64,000 nucleotides of DNA from a virus (lineage: Duplodnaviria; Caudoviricetes). This document shows positions 52,363-64,000 of the stretch, piece after piece. Positions within the stretch are counted from its first letter, which is position 1. Each line of letters begins with the position of its first letter. The position numbers and the translations under genes are program-made. The stretch spans positions 128,001 to 192,000 of IMG/VR virus record IMGVR_UViG_3300012952_003952. The stretch is one strand, 5' to 3'. The notes beneath the pieces were generated by a model. The model saw nothing but the letters and a program-made list of their open reading frames with translations. It was not told where the DNA came from and searched no databases.

Positions 52363-52788
52363 ATGAAGAAATGGAATCCACCAAAATCACCATGGAATCT
52401 TGTGCAAGAGCCATATTTCGGTGATGAATGGAAAATTCTTATATGCTGTCTGTTATTGAATCTTACGACTCACAAGCAAGTTAGAAAAATTTTAGACGAG
52501 TTATTTGAGAAATACCCTAATCCAAAATCTATGTGTTTGGCTGAAGAAGAAGATTTAAAAGATTTGCTTAGTTCTCTTGGTTTAGTTAACAAGAGAGCAA
52601 AAACGCTTATTCGGTTCTCTCATGAATACCTTACCAAAGATTGGAAGACGGCTAAAGATTTGTACGGCTGCGGAAAATATGCTGATGATGCATGGCATAT
52701 TTTTTGTGTCGGAGATTGGCAAAGCGTTGAGCCAAAAGATCACGCATTAAACTATTATCATGACTTTTTGAGGGAGAATTATGCCTGA
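52363..52788 (+). CDS. MBD4-like HhH mismatch (G:T/G:U) DNA glycosylase, catalytic domain only
   Basis: KKWNPPKSPWNLVQE, WKILICCLLLNLT, LGLVNKRAKTL and LYGCGKYADDAWHIFCVGDWQSVEPKDHALNYYHDFL. Confidence 0.85.
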   Translation: MKKWNPPKSPWNLVQEPYFGDEWKILICCLLLNLTTHKQVRKILDELFEKYPNPKSMCLAEEEDLKDLLSSLGLVNKRAKTLIRFSHEYLTKDWKTAKDLYGCGKYADDAWHIFCVGDWQSVEPKDHALNYYHDFLRENYA

Positions 52789-53587
52789 AGGCCCAGAATG
52801 CAGAAGAATTGCAGAGTCGCTTGCAAAAGAAGTTTCTAATAAGACCATCGTGGGTATAGACATCCTCGGAGGCAGGTATACTAAGAAAGAACCATCAGGT
52901 TTATCAGATTTAATTTCTGATCTACCGATTGCCGTTGCTGGGGTAGGTGTTCATGGAAAGTTTATTTATTGGATTCTTTCTAAAGAACATTCGCTCTGGA
53001 ACACTCTTGGAATGAGTGGACATTGGTCTGGTGAAGAGCAAAAACATTCTAGAATAAAAATCAGGTTTTCTGATAAAACGCATGTTTACTTTAATGACAC
53101 TAGAAATTTTGGAACAATTAAATTAGTAAAGGGAAAATCAGAGCTTATAAAAAAGCTTAAATCTCTTGGTCCAGATATGCTCTCAGAAGACGTTGATAAT
53201 ATAACATTTTTGTCTGCGCTTAGAAAGAAAAATAAACACAATATATGCAAAGTTCTTATGGACCAAAGCGTCATCGCTGGCGTAGGAAATTATGTAAAAG
53301 CTGAAGCATTGTGGTTAGCTAAAATTAATCCAGCTTCTAACGTTCAAGATTTAGAAGACTACCAGTTAATAGATCTTAATGAGTCTATTAAAAGTGTTTT
53401 AAGAGCTTCTTACGAAAGCGGAGGAGCTACTATTAAGTCATATAAAAACTTTGATGGTGAAATTGGGGATTACTCTTCTCGGTTTCTTGTTTATAATCAG
53501 AAAACAGACCCCCACGGAAACGAAGTGGTAAAGTTTCAAACCCCAGACGGTAGAACAACTCACTGGGTGCCAGAAGTTCAAATTTAG
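52781..53587 (+). CDS. Fpg/Nei-family DNA glycosylase
   Basis: N-terminal MPEGPE, HGKFIY, LGMSG, FNDTRNFG, H2TH LMDQSVIAGVGNYVKAEALW. Confidence 0.9.
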   Translation: MPEGPECRRIAESLAKEVSNKTIVGIDILGGRYTKKEPSGLSDLISDLPIAVAGVGVHGKFIYWILSKEHSLWNTLGMSGHWSGEEQKHSRIKIRFSDKTHVYFNDTRNFGTIKLVKGKSELIKKLKSLGPDMLSEDVDNITFLSALRKKNKHNICKVLMDQSVIAGVGNYVKAEALWLAKINPASNVQDLEDYQLIDLNESIKSVLRASYESGGATIKSYKNFDGEIGDYSSRFLVYNQKTDPHGNEVVKFQTPDGRTTHWVPEVQI

Positions 53588-54731: not shown

Positions 54732-54964
54732 AAATCGGTTCTCTTATAGTGTTTGAAGAAGAAGCTCAAGGATATGATCTAGTTCAAAAGCAGGGCAATC
54801 TTTTTAGAAATGATCTAATAAGAATAAACACTGGAACCTGTGGAATAGTTTGCAAGCTTTACGACTACCCATCTACTAACATGACACTGGCAGAGATACT
54901 AATTGGAAACAAGCTTGTTTGTGACGTTAATTTAAATAAGCACGAATACAAGCTTATAAATTAA
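54728..54964 (+). CDS. hypothetical protein
   Basis: ATGA overlap with the previous gene; 78 aa. Confidence 0.5.
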   Translation: MKIGSLIVFEEEAQGYDLVQKQGNLFRNDLIRINTGTCGIVCKLYDYPSTNMTLAEILIGNKLVCDVNLNKHEYKLIN

Positions 54965-55695
54965 AAACATTCTCTTGCAATTGAAACAGATCCGCTTGGA
55001 GAAGCTTGAAAAGTTCTTATTTTGACATGCGGATAATAGTCTTTGCATAAATCTGCAACAGCGTCGATATTGCCAGAATTGTCATCATAAAAATACACTT
55101 CATCTGGATCATATTGGTCTATGTAAGATTTCATTATGCTTGCTTTAGCGCTAGGGTTCCCTCCCATATCACCAGCAGTATGAATGTCTCCACTAGAAAT
55201 GCTTAATCCTTGAGAATTTAGAAATTGAGAAATGTCTTCTCTGTTCGTAGCTTTTACAGAGTTTCCCCTAAGAGAATCTAGATCTTGGTTACCAGATCTT
55301 GCTGTTATGATTATCACTAAAGAGCTAGGGCTACTCTGCGCGCTTTTAGCTATATTCAATATATTTTCTATTGGAGAAGTAGAATCAATGTTTACGCCGG
55401 CAGTTTCTGAAAAATCGAAAACATCTTCTAGCTCATTAGAAGAAAGGTAATCTAAATCTTTTCTTGCTTTTTGCTCATAGTGCGCAAAGTCTTCTGATGA
55501 AAACCAAACTATTTCATTTTCAGTGCCTTTATTCTCTACAGAGTTAAAATCTAGTGAATTGTCTAATATCCAATTCATGAATTCTGGATCAGCTTTTCCG
55601 CTTGGTTTATTTCTCCTAACTCCGATCAGATTATCAGTTATAGCTAGCGTATCATCAAAATCAAACGCGAATATTTTTTTAATTTTTGAAGCCAT
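54961..55695 (-). CDS. HAD-superfamily hydrolase
   Basis: FAFDFDDTL (motif I), IITARS (II), K (III), FYDDNSGN (IV); ATG at 55695 with AAGGA upstream. Confidence 0.8.
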   Translation of the reverse strand: MASKIKKIFAFDFDDTLAITDNLIGVRRNKPSGKADPEFMNWILDNSLDFNSVENKGTENEIVWFSSEDFAHYEQKARKDLDYLSSNELEDVFDFSETAGVNIDSTSPIENILNIAKSAQSSPSSLVIIITARSGNQDLDSLRGNSVKATNREDISQFLNSQGLSISSGDIHTAGDMGGNPSAKASIMKSYIDQYDPDEVYFYDDNSGNIDAVADLCKDYYPHVKIRTFQASPSGSVSIARECF

Positions 55696-55752
55696 GTACA
55701 ATTTCCTTATGCAAAATATAAGTATTATAGTATTATCTAACAAGAGACTCTA

Positions 55753-59735: not shown

Positions 59736-60584
59736 ATGAATTCGAAATACAAAAATTTAAATCAAGCCTTTGTAGAAGAGTTAGTCGATTGCCACAAGAA
59801 CGGCGTAGAAGTTGAATCTCGTGGCTTCGTACAAAAAGAAAAACTTTTCTCTTCTTTTATAATTCAAGATCCCACCGATTTGCGAATTGATGTCCCAGCT
59901 AGAAAGTTCAATGAAGACTATGCAATTTTAGAATGGCTTTGGTACCTAAACTCTGACTCTAGAATAAAGACTATCGGTAAATTTGCAGATATTTGGAACA
60001 AGATTGCAGATTCGCAAGGGGTCGTTGAGTCTAACTATGGCTCTTATTTAAAGCCGTGCTGGTATGACTTAGTAGATGAGCTTATATCTGATAGAGATAC
60101 CCGTAGAGCAACTTGCGTAATTAATCAGCCATACCATAGGTTCAAAAACCCAAAAGACTATCCTTGTACGCACTATATTCACTTTTTTATCAGAGAAGAA
60201 GCTCTTCACATGGGCGTATATATGCGGTCTAATGATGCAGTTTTTGGTTTTTGTAACGACGTTTTCACCTTTGCGTTGTTTCAACAGCTTATGCTAAATG
60301 AACTAAACGCTCGCGGTGGTAAACTTTCATTAGGAACATACTACCACTCGGCTGGAAGCTTTCACGTATACGATAGACATTATTCTATGATGGAAAAGAT
60401 AGCTGAAAATTATTTTGTGAAAGCTAGAAGAAATGGGTATCCAACCGACTTAAAGAAAATAGTGCTAGATCCCAATTTAACCTGGCCGAAAATGGAAAAC
60501 TACACGTCTTTTTTCAATGAAGACTTAGACAAAGAAGAAGTTTTAAATACAATTAAAAAGACTAAGGAAATTATATTCAAATGA
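59736..60584 (+). CDS. thymidylate-synthase-fold enzyme, dCMP hydroxymethylase-like (T4 gp42 type)
   Basis: DTRRA, DYPCT catalytic Cys, MRSNDAVFGFCNDV with Asp at the base-specificity position, YYHSAGSFHVY. Confidence 0.8.
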   Translation: MNSKYKNLNQAFVEELVDCHKNGVEVESRGFVQKEKLFSSFIIQDPTDLRIDVPARKFNEDYAILEWLWYLNSDSRIKTIGKFADIWNKIADSQGVVESNYGSYLKPCWYDLVDELISDRDTRRATCVINQPYHRFKNPKDYPCTHYIHFFIREEALHMGVYMRSNDAVFGFCNDVFTFALFQQLMLNELNARGGKLSLGTYYHSAGSFHVYDRHYSMMEKIAENYFVKARRNGYPTDLKKIVLDPNLTWPKMENYTSFFNEDLDKEEVLNTIKKTKEIIFK

Positions 60585-60862
60585 ATATTCTAAAAAAAGC
60601 AAATGAGATAATCAATGAAAGATCTGAAGAAAAAGAGCGCCAATACGGCCCAATGGGTGAAGGCCTTGAAAGAGCTGCGATGATTGCTTCTGGAATAACG
60701 GGTAAAGATTTAACAGCAGACGATATTTTTGCATGCCTCATCGGCCTTAAATTTTCTAGACATTCGTATAACTACAAAGAAGATAATTTTCTAGATGCTG
60801 CTGCTTATTTGGGAGCGTGGAACAATTACCAACAGGAGAAATTAAAAAGTGAAGATAAGTAA
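60581..60862 (+). CDS. DUF6378-like small all-alpha protein (possible nucleotide pyrophosphatase)
   Basis: RQYG ... LIGLKFSR ... DNFLDAAAY pattern; ATGA overlap. Confidence 0.55.
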   Translation: MNILKKANEIINERSEEKERQYGPMGEGLERAAMIASGITGKDLTADDIFACLIGLKFSRHSYNYKEDNFLDAAAYLGAWNNYQQEKLKSEDK

Positions 60863-61283
60863 AGTAAGGGCAGTTAAAACACCGCAAAGGGGGACTCCAG
60901 AGTCAGCTGGAATTGATTTTTTCGTGCCAGAGGGAATGATAGCTAAATTATCGCCTGGAGACTCTTGCTTGATGCCAAGCGGAATCAAAGCCAATGTTCC
61001 ATCTGGCCATGCATTAATAGCGTTTAATAAGAGTGGAGTAGCAGTTAAGAAATCTCTTCACGTTGGGGCATGCGTCGTAGACGAAGATTATCAGGGCGAA
61101 ATTCACCTTAATTTAATCAATGTTGGCTCGAGCGTTGCAGAGATAAAATCTGGAGAAAAAATAGTCCAATTTATTTTACTTCCTGTTTTTTATGACACAA
61201 TTGAAGAAGTAGAATTGGAAAACCTTTACGAAGACGAAACTGTTCGAGGTGAAGGTGGTTTTGGTAGCACGGGAGTAGAATAG
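60849..61283 (+). CDS. dut: trimeric dUTPase
   Basis: AGIDF, KSGVA, VVDEDYQGEI, IVQFIL and RGEGGFGSTG. Confidence 0.92.
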   Translation: MKISKVRAVKTPQRGTPESAGIDFFVPEGMIAKLSPGDSCLMPSGIKANVPSGHALIAFNKSGVAVKKSLHVGACVVDEDYQGEIHLNLINVGSSVAEIKSGEKIVQFILLPVFYDTIEEVELENLYEDETVRGEGGFGSTGVE

Positions 61284-62353
61284 TGGATTATTTTGTAGAT
61301 TATGAAATTCCTAAAAACTTTAAGATAGGGATCGACGGACTAGAGAGAAACATTCCGGCTAGAAAACACAGCCACAATGCTGCCTGGGTTCATCTCTACA
61401 AAAATATGCTACAATCTGCTGGCTGGAGTGATGTACACGTCTTAGGCAATCATGACACTTACGAAGGTTATGATGCTATGATATTTTATCCAGGAATTGC
61501 TTACGCTGGAACGATTAACTTCTTTTTTGGAGTTGACGACAATGTAGTTAGAAGGTTCTCCAGAATTCAAGATTTTGAAGGTCCGACTTTTATTTTAAAT
61601 CATGAAATGCCGCTCATTGGAGCGACGATCAGCAAAAGACTGCACAATAAATCGACAAGCTCGAAAATTGGAAATCTTAAACTGAGCTTATTAGATGATA
61701 TTTGCAAATCTACTCGCAGAATAGATTATGTTGAAAGATCAACAAAGCTTTGCTTTGGAGACAGTCATTGTTTTTCTGCTTATCTTCCAGGGTATTCTGT
61801 TTGCCGAAATGACGGGCTCACTCTTTTTTCTACGCTTCGCGATGGAGTAAAAGAGACCATTGAAGAAAAATATGGAGCTTCTGTTGAAAATTTGACTCAT
61901 CTTACTTTTTATATGGGCAATATTGATATAAGGCACCACTTGATGCGCCAAGAAAATCCATATGAAAAAATCCACGCTATGACTATCGAGCTTTCACACC
62001 AGCTTAAAAAACTTGATATACCAAACATTGAACTAGTTCACGCACTGCCTATCGAAAATATTTCTAGAAAACTTCCTAAAACTGGATATTATAAGAAGAC
62101 TCCATATTTCGGAACTTGGGAAGAAAGAACAAAATTAGTCAATACATTCAATGCCGCTGTAGATAGAATTTGTATAGAAAACAAATGGAATTCTTTCCAC
62201 TGGCCAGCTAAATTTTTAAATGATTCTGGTGAATTAGACTTTGAATATATGGAGCGCCCTAAAAGCGTACACTTAAGCCCGCTTTCTTATAGGTGGGACC
62301 TTTTTGAAAATCAATTAAATTTATTGCATAGTAATCAAAACAACGGAGAATAA
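61283..62353 (+). CDS. two-domain unknown: glucosyltransferase-N-like plus SGNH-like
   Basis: C-terminal FGDSH, GNIDIRHH and SVHL (SGNH-type blocks); N-terminal KIGI..YDAMI..INFFFG recalls T4 beta-glucosyltransferase. Confidence 0.5.
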   Translation: MDYFVDYEIPKNFKIGIDGLERNIPARKHSHNAAWVHLYKNMLQSAGWSDVHVLGNHDTYEGYDAMIFYPGIAYAGTINFFFGVDDNVVRRFSRIQDFEGPTFILNHEMPLIGATISKRLHNKSTSSKIGNLKLSLLDDICKSTRRIDYVERSTKLCFGDSHCFSAYLPGYSVCRNDGLTLFSTLRDGVKETIEEKYGASVENLTHLTFYMGNIDIRHHLMRQENPYEKIHAMTIELSHQLKKLDIPNIELVHALPIENISRKLPKTGYYKKTPYFGTWEERTKLVNTFNAAVDRICIENKWNSFHWPAKFLNDSGELDFEYMERPKSVHLSPLSYRWDLFENQLNLLHSNQNNGE

Positions 62354-62354
62354 T

Positions 62355-63545
62355 ATGCCAAAAAACAAGTCAATTAGAGTTGCAATCGTCGGAGTCGGAA
62401 ATTGTGCTAATTCCTTTTACCAGGGCTTAACGTATTATGCGGGGTACACCGCTGGACAAGAGCGCGATGGAGTGATGAAGAGCCGAATCGGAGGATATTC
62501 GGTAGCTGATCTCGAGGTTGTAGCAGCATTCGACGTTGATAAACGAAAAGTTGGAAAGTGTTTTAGAGAAGCTATGCTAGCCAAACCAAACTGTACTCCA
62601 AGCTATGAGGCAAATGTTCCTGACGGTCCCGTAGTTCAAATGGGCCCAATCATGGACGGTGTTCCAAATTTGATGGCTAATTATTCTGATGAAGAAGCGT
62701 TTAGAACTGCTGATTTAGAACCAGTAGATGTGGCTCAAGTGTTATTAGACCGCAAAGTGGATATTCTTATCAACTATCTTCCTGTTGGTTCTCAGAAGGC
62801 CACCGAGTGGTATGCAGAACAGTGCCTTAAGACTGGAGTTTCTCTTCTTAACTGTATTCCAGTTTTTATTGCTTCTAATCCAGTTTGGGAGCAAAAGTTT
62901 ATTGATGCTGGAATTCCACTCGTTGGCGATGACATGAAATCTCAATTTGGGGCCTCTATTATGTCTCAAATGCTTCAAGAACTAGCTTTTGCTCGAGGTC
63001 TAAATGTTAAAGCTCACATTCAGCGAAATGTCGGTGGCAATACTGATTTCTTGAACATGGTAGATCAATCTCGGCTGAAATACAAGAAAGTTTCAAAGGA
63101 GAATGTAATTCGATCTCAACACGTAATTCGTGGTGTAGACCCCGAAGAATCTTTCCTCCATGCTGGGCCGTCTGAATATATTCGCTACTATGGAGATAAC
63201 AAGGTCGCAAACTTCCGAATTGAAATGGAGGGATTCCTTGGTGCCCCAGTTATTTTAGACGCGCAGCTTTCTGTAATTGACTCTCCTAACTCTGGAGGCG
63301 TTGTAATCGACGCCGCTCGGTATCTAAAAGTCGCCAGAGAGATGGGCATTGTAGGGGCTCTCAGAGGTCCGTCTGCTTTTACTCAGAAGACTCCGCCTCA
63401 ACAGCTTATGTTTAGTGAAACTCTTTATGAATGCGACGCTCTTTCTGATAGGAGGCTCACTCGATTTACTAAGCGCCAAACAGAAAAATACAGCGCTGAA
63501 GAGCTTTACCTATCGTGTCCAGCAGGAAACAAGGAAGTAGATTAA
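62355..63545 (+). CDS. ino1: myo-inositol-1-phosphate synthase
   Basis: VAIVGVGNCA, AAFDVDKRKVG, NYLPVGS, NCIPVFIAS, GDDMKSQFGAS, NVGGNTDFLNM, GPSEYI and DSPNSGGVVIDA. Confidence 0.95.
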   Translation: MPKNKSIRVAIVGVGNCANSFYQGLTYYAGYTAGQERDGVMKSRIGGYSVADLEVVAAFDVDKRKVGKCFREAMLAKPNCTPSYEANVPDGPVVQMGPIMDGVPNLMANYSDEEAFRTADLEPVDVAQVLLDRKVDILINYLPVGSQKATEWYAEQCLKTGVSLLNCIPVFIASNPVWEQKFIDAGIPLVGDDMKSQFGASIMSQMLQELAFARGLNVKAHIQRNVGGNTDFLNMVDQSRLKYKKVSKENVIRSQHVIRGVDPEESFLHAGPSEYIRYYGDNKVANFRIEMEGFLGAPVILDAQLSVIDSPNSGGVVIDAARYLKVAREMGIVGALRGPSAFTQKTPPQQLMFSETLYECDALSDRRLTRFTKRQTEKYSAEELYLSCPAGNKEVD

Positions 63546-64000
63546 TGGCTAAATTGCATGAGCAAAAAGGAAAACTTTTTAATCCAGACTCTGAAGATTT
63601 TGAAGAGTGTGTAATAAAGTTTAACGGAAGGAATGGGTTTTGGTACAGACCAGGCACTTTTGATTTAAATTCTATAAGAGAGTGCAGAGACAATTATAGC
63701 GATATTGACACTTGCGGGAAAACAGTTTTAGATTTAGGAGCCAACATTGGAGGATTTTCAAGAATGGCTCTAGAAAAAGGAGCTAAAAAAGTAATAGCTT
63801 TAGAGCCATGCCCTCATAATTTTCAAATTTTAGAGATCAATGCCCCAAATGCAGAATGTCTAAATGCTGCAGTTTGCGAAAGCAAGGTAAAAGAAGTAGT
63901 TTTTCATTATGCTGGATCTAAAAGAAACTCAGTGTCGTCTTCTACTCTTAAAAGAAGAAATGCTTCTGGAGTATCTATTGCAGTACCAGGATTATCATTT
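63545..64000 (+). CDS. FkbM-like SAM-dependent methyltransferase (3' end outside window; absent from ORF track)
   Basis: TAATG overlap with ino1; open to the window end: MAKLHEQK...KTVLDLGANIGGFSRMALEKGAKKVIALEPCPHNFQIL...LNAAV. Confidence 0.8.
   Translation, partial: MAKLHEQKGKLFNPDSEDFEECVIKFNGRNGFWYRPGTFDLNSIRECRDNYSDIDTCGKTVLDLGANIGGFSRMALEKGAKKVIALEPCPHNFQILEINAPNAECLNAAVCESKVKEVVFHYAGSKRNSVSSSTLKRRNASGVSIAVPGLSF

What the first reader, a model, noticed from the sequence alone, without database searches (positions are those of the whole stretch)
61283..62353. Unknown two-domain protein: beta-glucosyltransferase-like N-domain joined to an SGNH-like domain
Seen: the N-terminus has KIGI...HLYKNML..G..DVHVL...YDAMIF...INFFFG. 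From memory this parallels T4 beta-glucosyltransferase (KIAI...YLFKVI..MGLNVDII...YDRLIV...INFFGG), in the acceptor/DNA-binding half. The C-terminal half lacks the UDP-sugar domain and instead has SGNH-type blocks (GDSH, GNID, SVH). Inference: this may be the enzyme that recognises modified C in DNA and attaches a non-UDP-sugar group. It sits directly upstream of ino1.
Basis: inference. Interest (0 to 1): 0.72.

Follow-up and report, generated by a model that had tools for sequence, protein, structure and literature searches.

The report
Phage hmC-DNA enzyme: half glucosyltransferase, half esterase
This uncharacterised phage protein joins the DNA-facing half of T4's DNA glucosyltransferase to an esterase-type (SGNH) domain. 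It is the constant core of a widespread, undescribed gene set that further modifies hydroxymethyl-cytosine in phage DNA, here probably with inositol.

Summary
ORF 61283-62353 (+) encodes 356 aa with no Pfam or NCBIfam match. AlphaFold2 (pLDDT 96) gives two domains. Residues 150-355 have an SGNH fold (Z 12.9; all 50 top rows are SGNH). For residues 1-150, the best match among 48,161 chains is the T4 beta-glucosyltransferase N-domain (Z 7.7). A profile comparison (E 1e-4; controls 0.2-0.4) agrees in the same register and on the recalled motifs.

The family is phage-only (at least 710 clusters). 93 of 101 loci place it fused to, or within 2.4 kb of, a kinase-less helical protein of the 5-hmdU-kinase / amino-acid:DNA-transferase superfamily. 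That partner keeps the catalytic E-x3-C motif. Nearly all neighbouring ThyA homologues with a readable motif carry the T4 gp42 (hydroxymethyl-dCMP) signature. Accessory genes switch with partner type: ino1 + HAD (+ FkbM) here, a PLP enzyme elsewhere.

Cultured carriers are Aeromonas phages 44RR, 31 and 25, long known to have gene 42 but no glucosyltransferase.

Best reading (0.4): the protein esterifies the 5-CH2OH of hmC in DNA, taking the role the P-loop kinase has in thymidine pathways, and the partner then attaches inositol. First-stage notes of this scan had already flagged this stretch on this genome.

The parts
61283..62353 (+). Target gene, 356 aa: BGT-N-like domain plus SGNH-fold domain
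   Evidence: ORF. No Pfam or NCBIfam match. PHROG 17781/13881, both 'unknown'. AF2 model pLDDT 96.4, pTM 0.93.
61283..61732 (+). N-domain (residues 1-150), Rossmann-like, homologous to the N-terminal (acceptor-side) domain of T4 beta-glucosyltransferase. S30-H31 are near-invariant (H31 codon 61373-61375).
   Evidence: VIA-align top hit 1c3j_A, Z 7.7. hhalign E 1.1e-4 against controls of 0.19-0.43. S30 and H31 each 67/70; H31 invariant in the 7-sequence alignment that includes cultured phages.
61733..62353 (+). C-domain (residues 151-356), SGNH fold. Block I is G159-D160-S161-H162 (S161 codon 61763-61765). A block III-like G212-N213-I214-D215-I-R217-H218-H219 follows. H330 (codon 62270-62272) sits in S-V-H. 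R222, E258, R262, R282 and E324 are also invariant or nearly so.
   Evidence: Z 12.9, all 50 top rows SGNH. Foldseek E 2e-4. Residue counts.
59736..60584 (+). ThyA homologue of the T4 gp42 type (predicted 5-hydroxymethyl-dCMP synthase)
   Evidence: Pfam Thymidylat_synt 1e-17. 31% identical to T4 gp42. Positions 143=D, 169=D, 177=D, read against the diagnostic residues given in PMC13326640.
60581..60862 (+). DUF6378 protein, the most constant upstream neighbour of the target
   Evidence: Pfam DUF6378 1.4e-12. Present in 72 of 80 viral loci.
60849..61283 (+). Trimeric-type dUTPase; its stop codon overlaps the target's start
   Evidence: Pfam dUTPase 1e-21. NCBIfam dut. Sequence.
62355..63545 (+). 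myo-inositol-phosphate synthase (ino1)
   Evidence: Pfam 4e-22. NCBIfam inositol-3-phosphate synthase 6e-98, below the equivalog cut-off. In the viral loci it occurs only in those whose partner is the HMUDK-like type, 22 loci, and likewise in the MAG loci, except L112, which is cut off before a partner could be seen.
63515..64000 (+). FkbM-family methyltransferase; runs off the window (complete at L002:4516-5262). Beyond the window follow a small HAD (L002:5272-5688), the 484-aa kinase-less HMUDK-helical partner (L002:5681-7135) and a C5-methyltransferase-like gene (L002:7135-8313).
   Evidence: Fused to partner and target in P0130.

Best explanation
The protein is the constant catalytic core of a previously undescribed family of post-replicative 5-hydroxymethylcytosine (hmC) DNA hypermodification systems in T4-like and other large phages. 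The phage makes hm-dCMP with a gp42-type enzyme and incorporates hmC into its DNA. The BGT-like N-domain then presents the hmC hydroxymethyl group (H31 is a candidate general base). The SGNH domain (Ser161/His330) converts the 5-CH2-OH into an ester, that is, it installs a leaving group. This is the role that the P-loop kinase 5-HMUDK plays in thymidine hypermodification. The helical partner (484 aa here) uses its E-x3-C cysteine to attack C6, expel the leaving group and add the cluster-specific nucleophile. In this phage that nucleophile is myo-inositol, made by ino1 plus the small HAD phosphatase and then O-methylated by FkbM. SHOWN: the folds, residue conservation, gene linkage, fusions, and the ThyA and partner motifs. 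INFERRED: DNA as substrate, the order of steps, the nature of the ester (acyl is favoured by SGNH chemistry; the donor is unknown), and inositol as the nucleophile.
For: (1) Architecture: BGT N-domain homology plus an SGNH fold with Ser and His retained (S161+H330 in 68/70). (2) Obligate-looking pairing. In 77/80 viral loci, and 36/36 with enough flank, a helical partner lies on the same strand, fused or within 2.4 kb; likewise in 16/21 MAG loci, the other five being cut off by a contig end. Independent fusions exist to both partner families: P0179 and P0130; P0128, P0147, P0157, P0168, P0196, P0212, P0218 and P0247. (3) The partners keep an invariant E-x3-C: E345/C349 in 17/17 and E322/C326 in 8/8. 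This is the spacing of catalytic Glu243/Cys247 in PaMx11 gp46 (PMC11472151) and of M6 gp51. Atlas look-alikes of B410 carry HMUDK_hel/ADDT/aGPT-Pplase3. (4) The partner branch lacks a kinase: no P-loop, and none of its 120 closest homologues has a kinase domain. No AAA_33-, Zeta- or M6-type kinase was found on the 242-kb contig. (5) The constant target contrasts with a variable partner and accessories: ino1/HAD accompany only the HMUDK-like partner, PLP/MazG only B410. This mirrors the kinase + AADT core with variable tailoring in thymidine pathways (PMC8989533). (6) hmC context: 16/16 ThyA homologues in viral loci and 11 in MAG loci read D143/D169/D177. The operon ino1-HAD-[FkbM+partner+target]-dNMP kinase-ThyA[DDD] occurs in an independent lineage. 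(7) The cultured carriers 44RR, 31 and 25 have gene 42 but no glucosyltransferases (PMC2993671).
Against: No biochemical data exist for any member. The complete genomes of Aeromonas phage 25 and Tenacibaculum phage PTm5 carry the family without any detectable helical partner, so the protein can work without one. SGNH enzymes are not known to act on DNA or to make activated esters for substitution, and no acyl donor or donor-supplying gene is evident in the clusters. The canonical SGNH block III register (GxND) and the block V Asp (DxxH) are not kept. The many invariant Arg, His and Asp residues could point to phosphate or metal chemistry instead. The BGT similarity is moderate (Z 7.7, hhalign probability 57%), and the BGT catalytic Asp100 is not clearly conserved. 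The contig is only 57% complete, so a separate kinase cannot be excluded.
Confidence: 0.4

Rival explanations
1. One reading: the protein is itself the group transferase. The N-domain binds hmC in DNA as in BGT. The SGNH domain replaces the UDP-sugar domain, binds a non-nucleotide donor (here an inositol derivative) and attaches it to the hmC hydroxyl. The helical protein serves only as a base-recognition or flipping subunit.
For: Its GT-B-like logic (acceptor domain plus donor domain) fits the architecture. The gene abuts ino1. Phage 25 and PTm5 have the protein without a helical partner. Many invariant Arg and His residues could bind a phosphorylated donor such as inositol phosphate.
Against: The protein is conserved at about 40% identity between clusters with ino1 and clusters with a PLP enzyme and no ino1. 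It is the partner family, not this protein, that switches with the accessory chemistry. The partner retains the catalytic E-x3-C of proven DNA transferases. Inositol or inositol phosphate is not an activated donor, and no nucleotidyltransferase that could activate it is present.
Confidence: 0.25
2. A tailoring or editing esterase/O-acyltransferase. It adds or removes an acyl group on the moiety already attached to the base (inositol, sugar, amino-acid-derived group), or on hmC as a simple end modification such as O-acetyl-hmC.
For: This is the ordinary chemistry of SGNH enzymes, including the O-acetyltransferases OatA and PatB found among the structural matches. Phage 25 places it next to a UDP-galactopyranose mutase and an unknown 358-aa protein, which is a sugar context without a helical partner. 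PaMx11-type thymidine pathways do end with an acetyltransferase (PMC8989533).
Against: A tailoring enzyme would be expected to vary with the appended group, yet this is the most constant gene of the system and is repeatedly fused to the partner rather than to accessory enzymes. The BGT-like N-domain suggests that the base, not a distal group, is recognised.
Confidence: 0.17
3. Not a DNA enzyme. It might be a nucleotide- or metabolite-level esterase or phosphoesterase (for example acting on hm-dCMP derivatives or inositol phosphates), or a non-catalytic scaffold, whose linkage to the cluster reflects shared metabolism only.
For: No direct evidence of DNA binding exists. The Z 7.7 match is within the range where only a common arrangement may be shared (note). 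The D-x-H, G-N-x-D and H-H motifs superficially recall phosphoesterase signatures.
Against: It is fused to a domain family whose characterised members act on bases within DNA. The BGT similarity is specific against controls. Ser and His are invariant in a well-formed SGNH site. Linkage persists in clusters that lack ino1.
Confidence: 0.1

Closest known systems
T4 beta-glucosyltransferase (BGT; GT-B fold; PDB 1C3J, 1J39)
   Same: The N-terminal Rossmann-like domain matches: top structural match (Z 7.7, 105 residues, BGT 1-137), profile match E 1e-4 in the same register, and shared KI.I / YD..I / N.FGG motifs. Both occur in T4-like phages whose DNA carries hmC made by a gp42-type enzyme.
   Different: There is no UDP-sugar-binding C-domain; an SGNH-fold domain takes its place. 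BGT's catalytic Asp100 is not clearly conserved, and S30-H31 are the conserved N-domain residues instead. No sequence search retrieves BGT.
SGNH/GDSL hydrolases and SGNH O-acyltransferases (sialate O-acetylesterase 7PZG, PAF-AH, OatA/PatB)
   Same: The five-stranded alpha/beta/alpha fold (Z up to 12.9). Block I G-D-S lies directly after strand 1. A conserved His lies in the loop after the last strand. Ser and His are kept in 68/70 sequences.
   Different: No Pfam GDSL model matches. Block III reads G-N-I-D rather than G-x-N-D. The DxxH Asp is absent. Family-specific invariant residues are added (H162, R217, H218, H219, R222, E258, R262, R282, E324). It is joined to a BGT-like domain and linked to DNA-base-modifying partners.
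5-hmdU DNA kinase (5-HMUDK) + amino-acid:DNA transferase (aGPT-Pplase2/AADT) core of thymidine hypermodification (phages M6, ViI, PaMx11, PhiW-14)
   Same: The system logic is the same: a hydroxymethyl-pyrimidine is made at nucleotide level, a constant two-enzyme core acts on DNA, and variable tailoring genes (PLP enzyme and others) follow. The partner protein belongs to the same helical superfamily and keeps the catalytic E-x3-C.
   Different: The base is cytosine rather than uracil (ThyA 177=D). No P-loop kinase is present, and this BGT-N/SGNH protein occupies its place. The accessory genes (ino1, HAD, FkbM) are new to such clusters.

Membership tests
T4 BGT-type GT-B DNA glycosyltransferase | N-terminal Rossmann-like acceptor-side domain | tested here: met
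   VIA-align top hit 1c3j_A: Z 7.7, rmsd 2.7 A, 105 residues. hhalign E 1.1e-4 against controls of 0.19-0.43. The strength is moderate.
T4 BGT-type GT-B DNA glycosyltransferase | C-terminal Rossmann-like nucleotide-sugar-binding domain | tested here: not met
   Residues 150-355 match only SGNH proteins: 50 of the 50 top rows. The profile match to BGT ends at BGT residue 97.
T4 BGT-type GT-B DNA glycosyltransferase | Catalytic Asp100 | tested here: inconclusive
   The aligned columns 106-108 are variable: column 106 has D 24, N 11, H 9; column 108 has P 22, D 18, E 12, out of 70. The alignment register beyond BGT residue 97 is uncertain.
SGNH/GDSL hydrolase superfamily | Three-layer alpha/beta/alpha SGNH fold | tested here: met
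   Z 12.9 to 9.2 for 50 SGNH chains. Foldseek E 2e-4, target TM about 0.6. Atlas look-alikes are GDSL clusters.
SGNH/GDSL hydrolase superfamily | Block I G-D-S with nucleophilic Ser after strand 1 | tested here: met
   G159 68/70, D160 70/70, S161 69/70 (+1 T), immediately after strand 155-159.
SGNH/GDSL hydrolase superfamily | Block II Gly and block III G-x-N-D (oxyanion hole) | tested here: inconclusive
   G178 is present in 53/70. The motif after strand 3 is G212-N213-I214-D215 (N 60/70, D 70/70), shifted by one position from G-x-N-D. The geometry could not be inspected.
SGNH/GDSL hydrolase superfamily | Block V D-x-x-H | tested here: inconclusive
   H330 is present in 68/70, but position -3 is K/R/Q. 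Invariant E324 lies at -6.
SGNH/GDSL hydrolase superfamily | Recognised by curated family models | tested here: not met
   No Pfam hit at E<=0.1 and no NCBIfam hit. The profile finds no PDB chain.
5-hmdU DNA kinase (5-HMUDK) | P-loop kinase domain | tested here: not met
   The target has no Walker A motif. The fold is SGNH. Only a functional analogy is proposed.

The most novel reading that the evidence does not exclude
An SGNH-fold enzyme grafted onto half of a DNA glucosyltransferase esterifies hydroxymethyl-cytosine within DNA. This would be a kinase-independent way of activating a DNA base, allowing a cysteine-dependent partner to build an inositol-ether (then O-methylated) cytosine, a DNA base not yet described. 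Sister clusters would make amino-acid-derived cytosine adducts, and the same enzyme would account for the unknown hmC modification of Aeromonas phages 44RR, 31 and 25.
Probability: 0.3. Interest if true: 0.9.

Novelty: new variant of a known kind. Interest (0 to 1): 0.8.

Why it matters
Phage DNA hypermodifications decide how phages fare against restriction, CRISPR and other defences, and they have supplied tools for epigenetic sequencing. All characterised hmC hypermodifications are glycosylations, and the kinase/transferase route is known only for thymidine. This family points to a cytosine version of that route with a new kind of core enzyme and new appended chemistry (inositol; amino-acid-derived groups). 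It is abundant: at least 595 viral contigs, mostly marine. It also gives a concrete candidate for a question left open since 2010, namely what T4-like Aeromonas phages that have gene 42 but no glucosyltransferase do with their hmC. Because 44RR2.8t, 31 and 25 are cultured, this is directly testable.

Tried and rejected
- Complex prediction of target + 484-aa partner: score 0.00, 'no answer'. It is neither support nor evidence against binding.
- hhalign between the two partner families (A3 vs A4): no signal. Their kinship rests on the shared E-x3-C motif and Atlas look-alikes only.
- Profile searches of target and partner families against PDB sequences: nothing, or spurious TPR hits.
- Foldseek on the N-domain alone: only weak, generic flavodoxin/TIR/CheY rows, with BGT at rank 41. 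The BGT link comes from VIA-align plus hhalign.
- blastn of the 7.9-kb region against phage genomes: no match.
- M6 pathway proteins (kinase gp54, AADT gp51, gp55, PLP gp52) against this genome and the loci: no detectable similarity.
- Searches for AAA_33- or Zeta-type kinases on the contig: one sub-threshold Walker-A hit only.
- The 'GFIVDGKS' pattern in the partner was considered as a P-loop and rejected as chance.
- Phage 25's 358-aa neighbour against BGT and the N-domain profile: not significant.
- ThyA family in ten large clade-B contigs: found in only two, but the contigs are 27-64% complete. The question was settled by the MAG loci instead.
- Iyer et al. 2013 (the paper that defined aGPT-Pplase and 5-HMUDK) is not in the held library, so I could not check whether it already noted the Aeromonas fusion.
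- A metallophosphoesterase reading of the D-x-H / G-N-x-D / H-H motifs was rejected because the fold is SGNH.
Full report
OBSERVATION. The ORF at 61283-62353 (+) is real: 356 aa, with a GTG start overlapping the stop of the upstream dUTPase gene and a GGAG about 8 nt upstream. The gene is followed one base later by an inositol-3-phosphate synthase gene. The protein matches no Pfam or NCBIfam model, only two PHROG families of unknown function.

FOLDS. An AlphaFold2 model built on 70 homologues is confident (pLDDT 96.4, pTM 0.93).
- C-domain (residues ~150-355). It is an SGNH fold. In an exhaustive alignment to 48,161 PDB representatives all 50 top rows are SGNH/GDSL proteins (Z 12.9 to 9.2), and Foldseek agrees (E 2e-4).
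- N-domain (residues 1-150). Folded alone it reaches pLDDT 96.3. Its best match in the same exhaustive search is T4 beta-glucosyltransferase 1c3j_A: Z 7.7, rmsd 2.7 A, 105 residues, model 13-149 on BGT 1-137. The next row is Z 6.3, and T4 alpha-GT appears at rank 31. Foldseek alone was weak.
- Independent sequence test. hhalign of the N-domain family profile against the T4 BGT sequence gives E 1.1e-4 over 86 columns in the same register. Four unrelated T4 proteins give E 0.19-0.43 over at most 16 columns.

CONSERVATION. The family has at least 710 clusters at 90% identity and 388 representatives at 50%.
- Invariant residues in the 70-sequence alignment: D160, H162, D215, R217, R262, G277, R282, M323, E324.
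- Near-invariant residues: S30, H31, S161 (69/70), H218, H219, R222, E258, H330 (68/70).
- The same core is kept in the Aeromonas fused form, the stand-alone phage 25 form, PTm5 and other fusions.
- G-D-S follows strand 1 and H330 lies in the loop after the last strand, as in SGNH enzymes.
- Block III is G-N-I-D rather than G-x-N-D, and the DxxH Asp is missing.
It therefore looks like an active Ser/His enzyme with a remodelled, Arg/His-rich pocket.

DISTRIBUTION. The members look viral throughout.
- Atlas structural neighbours are 100% viral.
- 595 IMG/VR contigs encode a relative.
- Among 185,579 species genomes only 21 loci appear. All are in metagenome bins of scattered taxa and none in isolates.
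- Cultured carriers are 38 Aeromonas T4-like phages (the 44RR2.8t/31 group and the 25/Aes508 group), 2 Stenotrophomonas IME13 records and 3 Tenacibaculum phages.
- Petrov et al. 2010 state that 44RR, 31 and 25 encode gene 42, gene 56, alc, denA and denB but no glucosyltransferase, and that it is unknown whether such phages modify hmC otherwise (PMC2993671).

THE PARTNER. In 44RR2.8t the homologous region is the first ~335 aa of a 795-aa protein.
- The C-half of that protein matches a 484-aa protein encoded 2.3 kb downstream of the target in this phage (phrog_17781 positions 371-779, E 1.7e-89; phmmer 7e-90).
- This 484-aa protein hits Pfam HMUDK_hel, the helical domain of 5-hmdU DNA kinases, above threshold. 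It has no P-loop kinase domain.
- None of its 120 closest homologues has a kinase domain.
- A second partner family ('B410') is the downstream neighbour of the target in the ~40%-identity clade. It is fused to the target in eight 50%-identity representatives.
- hhalign does not connect the two partner families. However, Atlas look-alikes of B410 carry HMUDK_hel, ADDT (PF18724) and aGPT-Pplase3.
- Both families share an invariant E-x3-C-[Q/D]-[F/Y]..R motif: E345/C349 in 17/17 sequences and E322/C326 in 8/8.
- This is the spacing of Glu243/Cys247, the metal-binding and C6-attacking residues of the solved glycine:DNA transferase PaMx11 gp46 (PMC11472151). It is also found in M6 gp51 and gp55.

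LINKAGE.
- With profile HMMs, 77 of 80 viral loci have a partner on the same strand, fused/overlapping or within 2.4 kb. The three exceptions are truncated. Among loci with enough flanking DNA the count is 36 of 36.
- In the 21 more divergent MAG loci, 16 show a partner and the other five end where it would be expected.
- Accessory genes follow the partner type: ino1 (22 loci) and a small HAD (21) accompany the HMUDK-like partner, while a PLP enzyme (40) and a MazG-like protein (34) accompany B410. DUF6378 is present in 72/80.
- An independent lineage compresses the inositol type into ino1 - HAD - [FkbM + partner + target, one 981-aa protein] - T4 gp1-like dNMP kinase - ThyA homologue.

WHICH BASE. 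PMC13326640 gives diagnostic ThyA positions: N177D means dCMP, L143D/E means a non-methyl product, and D169N means 5-hydroxy-dCMP.
- This phage's homologue is D143/D169/D177 and 31% identical to T4 gp42.
- So are 16/16 readable homologues next to targets in viral loci and 11 in MAG loci, including B410/PLP-type operons ordered ThyA - dCMP deaminase - B410 - PLP - target.
- The gene-42 proteins of 44RR and 25 read the same.
- PTm5 has E143/N169/D177, the 5-hydroxy type.

MECHANISM. Thymidine hypermodification uses a constant core, with variable tailoring such as PLP decarboxylases (PMC8989533). In that core 5-HMUDK phosphorylates 5-hmdU in DNA, and an AADT then displaces the phosphate via a C6-cysteine adduct. 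Here the helical E-x3-C partner is present but kinase-less. No 5-HMUDK-type kinase is found on the contig, which is 57% complete. The one gene that is constant across partner types and accessory chemistries is the target. The most economical reading is that the target performs the common step: it recognises hmC through its BGT-like domain and esterifies the 5-CH2OH through its SGNH site, giving the partner a leaving group. The partner then chooses the nucleophile. Here that would be inositol from ino1 + HAD, later O-methylated by FkbM; in sister clusters it would be an amino acid processed by the PLP enzyme. I give this 0.4.

Against it, phage 25 and PTm5 have the protein but no detectable partner. 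In phage 25 it sits behind a UDP-galactopyranose mutase and an unknown 358-aa gene. Also, no donor is evident and the SGNH blocks are atypical. The rivals are as follows.
- A tailoring esterase/O-acyltransferase, or a simple O-acyl-hmC end product (0.17).
- A non-DNA or non-catalytic role (0.1).
The general statement, that this is a core enzyme of hmC-DNA hypermodification, I hold at about 0.8.

COMPARISON AND NOVELTY. It is not a BGT-family glycosyltransferase, because the donor domain is absent and Asp100 is not clearly kept. It is a divergent SGNH-fold protein that curated models do not recognise, and it is no kinase. No paper in the held library links an SGNH protein to DNA hypermodification or describes a cytosine-directed AADT-like system. 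Iyer et al. 2013 could not be consulted. I class it as a new variant of a known kind of system (post-replicative hydroxymethyl-pyrimidine hypermodification) built around a new enzyme architecture. First-stage notes of this scan had already flagged the same stretch and operon on this genome.

Noticed in passing
window 60581-60862 (+): The DUF6378 gene is the most constant neighbour of the target (72 of 80 viral loci, usually directly upstream). PHROGs label its families 'phosphofructokinase', which looks spurious. Its function is unknown. It may be a third core component, or a small all-alpha NTP pyrophosphatase-like protein.
   Followed up: partly
L002:7135-8313 (genome 194134-195312, beyond the window); also L107, L108, L111, L113, L119: A C5-cytosine-methyltransferase-like gene recurs directly downstream of the target, with both partner types. 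A C6-attacking enzyme in an hmC phage is unexpected and may take part in the same chemistry.
   Followed up: partly
L083:2743-4924 (Aeromonas phage 25): Phage 25 has a UDP-galactopyranose mutase (GLF, E 5e-54) and an unidentified 358-aa protein directly upstream of its stand-alone target homologue. 44RR has a sodium:solute symporter at the same position. This suggests different appended groups in the two Aeromonas phage groups.
   Followed up: partly
L096:1444-2121 (Tenacibaculum phage PTm5): PTm5's weak ThyA homologue reads E143/N169/D177, the signature reported for 5-hydroxy-dCMP synthases. Its target homologue has a diverged N-domain, and no helical partner was found in the complete genome.
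   Followed up: partly
Atlas structure search, row 4: A cluster of 972-aa Nucleocytoviricota proteins carrying glycosyltransferase domains (Gly_transf_sug, Glyco_transf_8) aligns to 251 residues spanning both domains of the model (TM 0.57). This may be a related two-domain module in giant viruses.
   Followed up: no
window 54961-55743 (-) and L002:5272-5688: There are two HAD-type proteins with DxDxT/V motifs (FAFDFDDTL; FDIDGVI), both matching phrog_415 ('polynucleotide kinase'). Only the small one travels with ino1; the larger lies on the opposite strand just before dnaE.
   Followed up: partly
window 52781-53587 (+): The phage encodes a complete Fpg/Nei-type DNA glycosylase (three Pfam domains) although its DNA is predicted to carry hypermodified cytosine.
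   Followed up: no
L106:10172-11116: One MAG locus has a ThyA homologue whose motif parsed as L143/N169/E177, unlike all the others (D/D/D). This may be a parsing artefact or a different specificity.
   Followed up: no
L002:8298-10324: Downstream of the cluster lie a GalE-like NAD-dependent epimerase, thymidine kinase, a cupin (PHROG 'cysteine dioxygenase'), a DHH phosphoesterase and dCMP deaminase. They are conserved only in the closest relatives (4-9 loci).
   Followed up: partly
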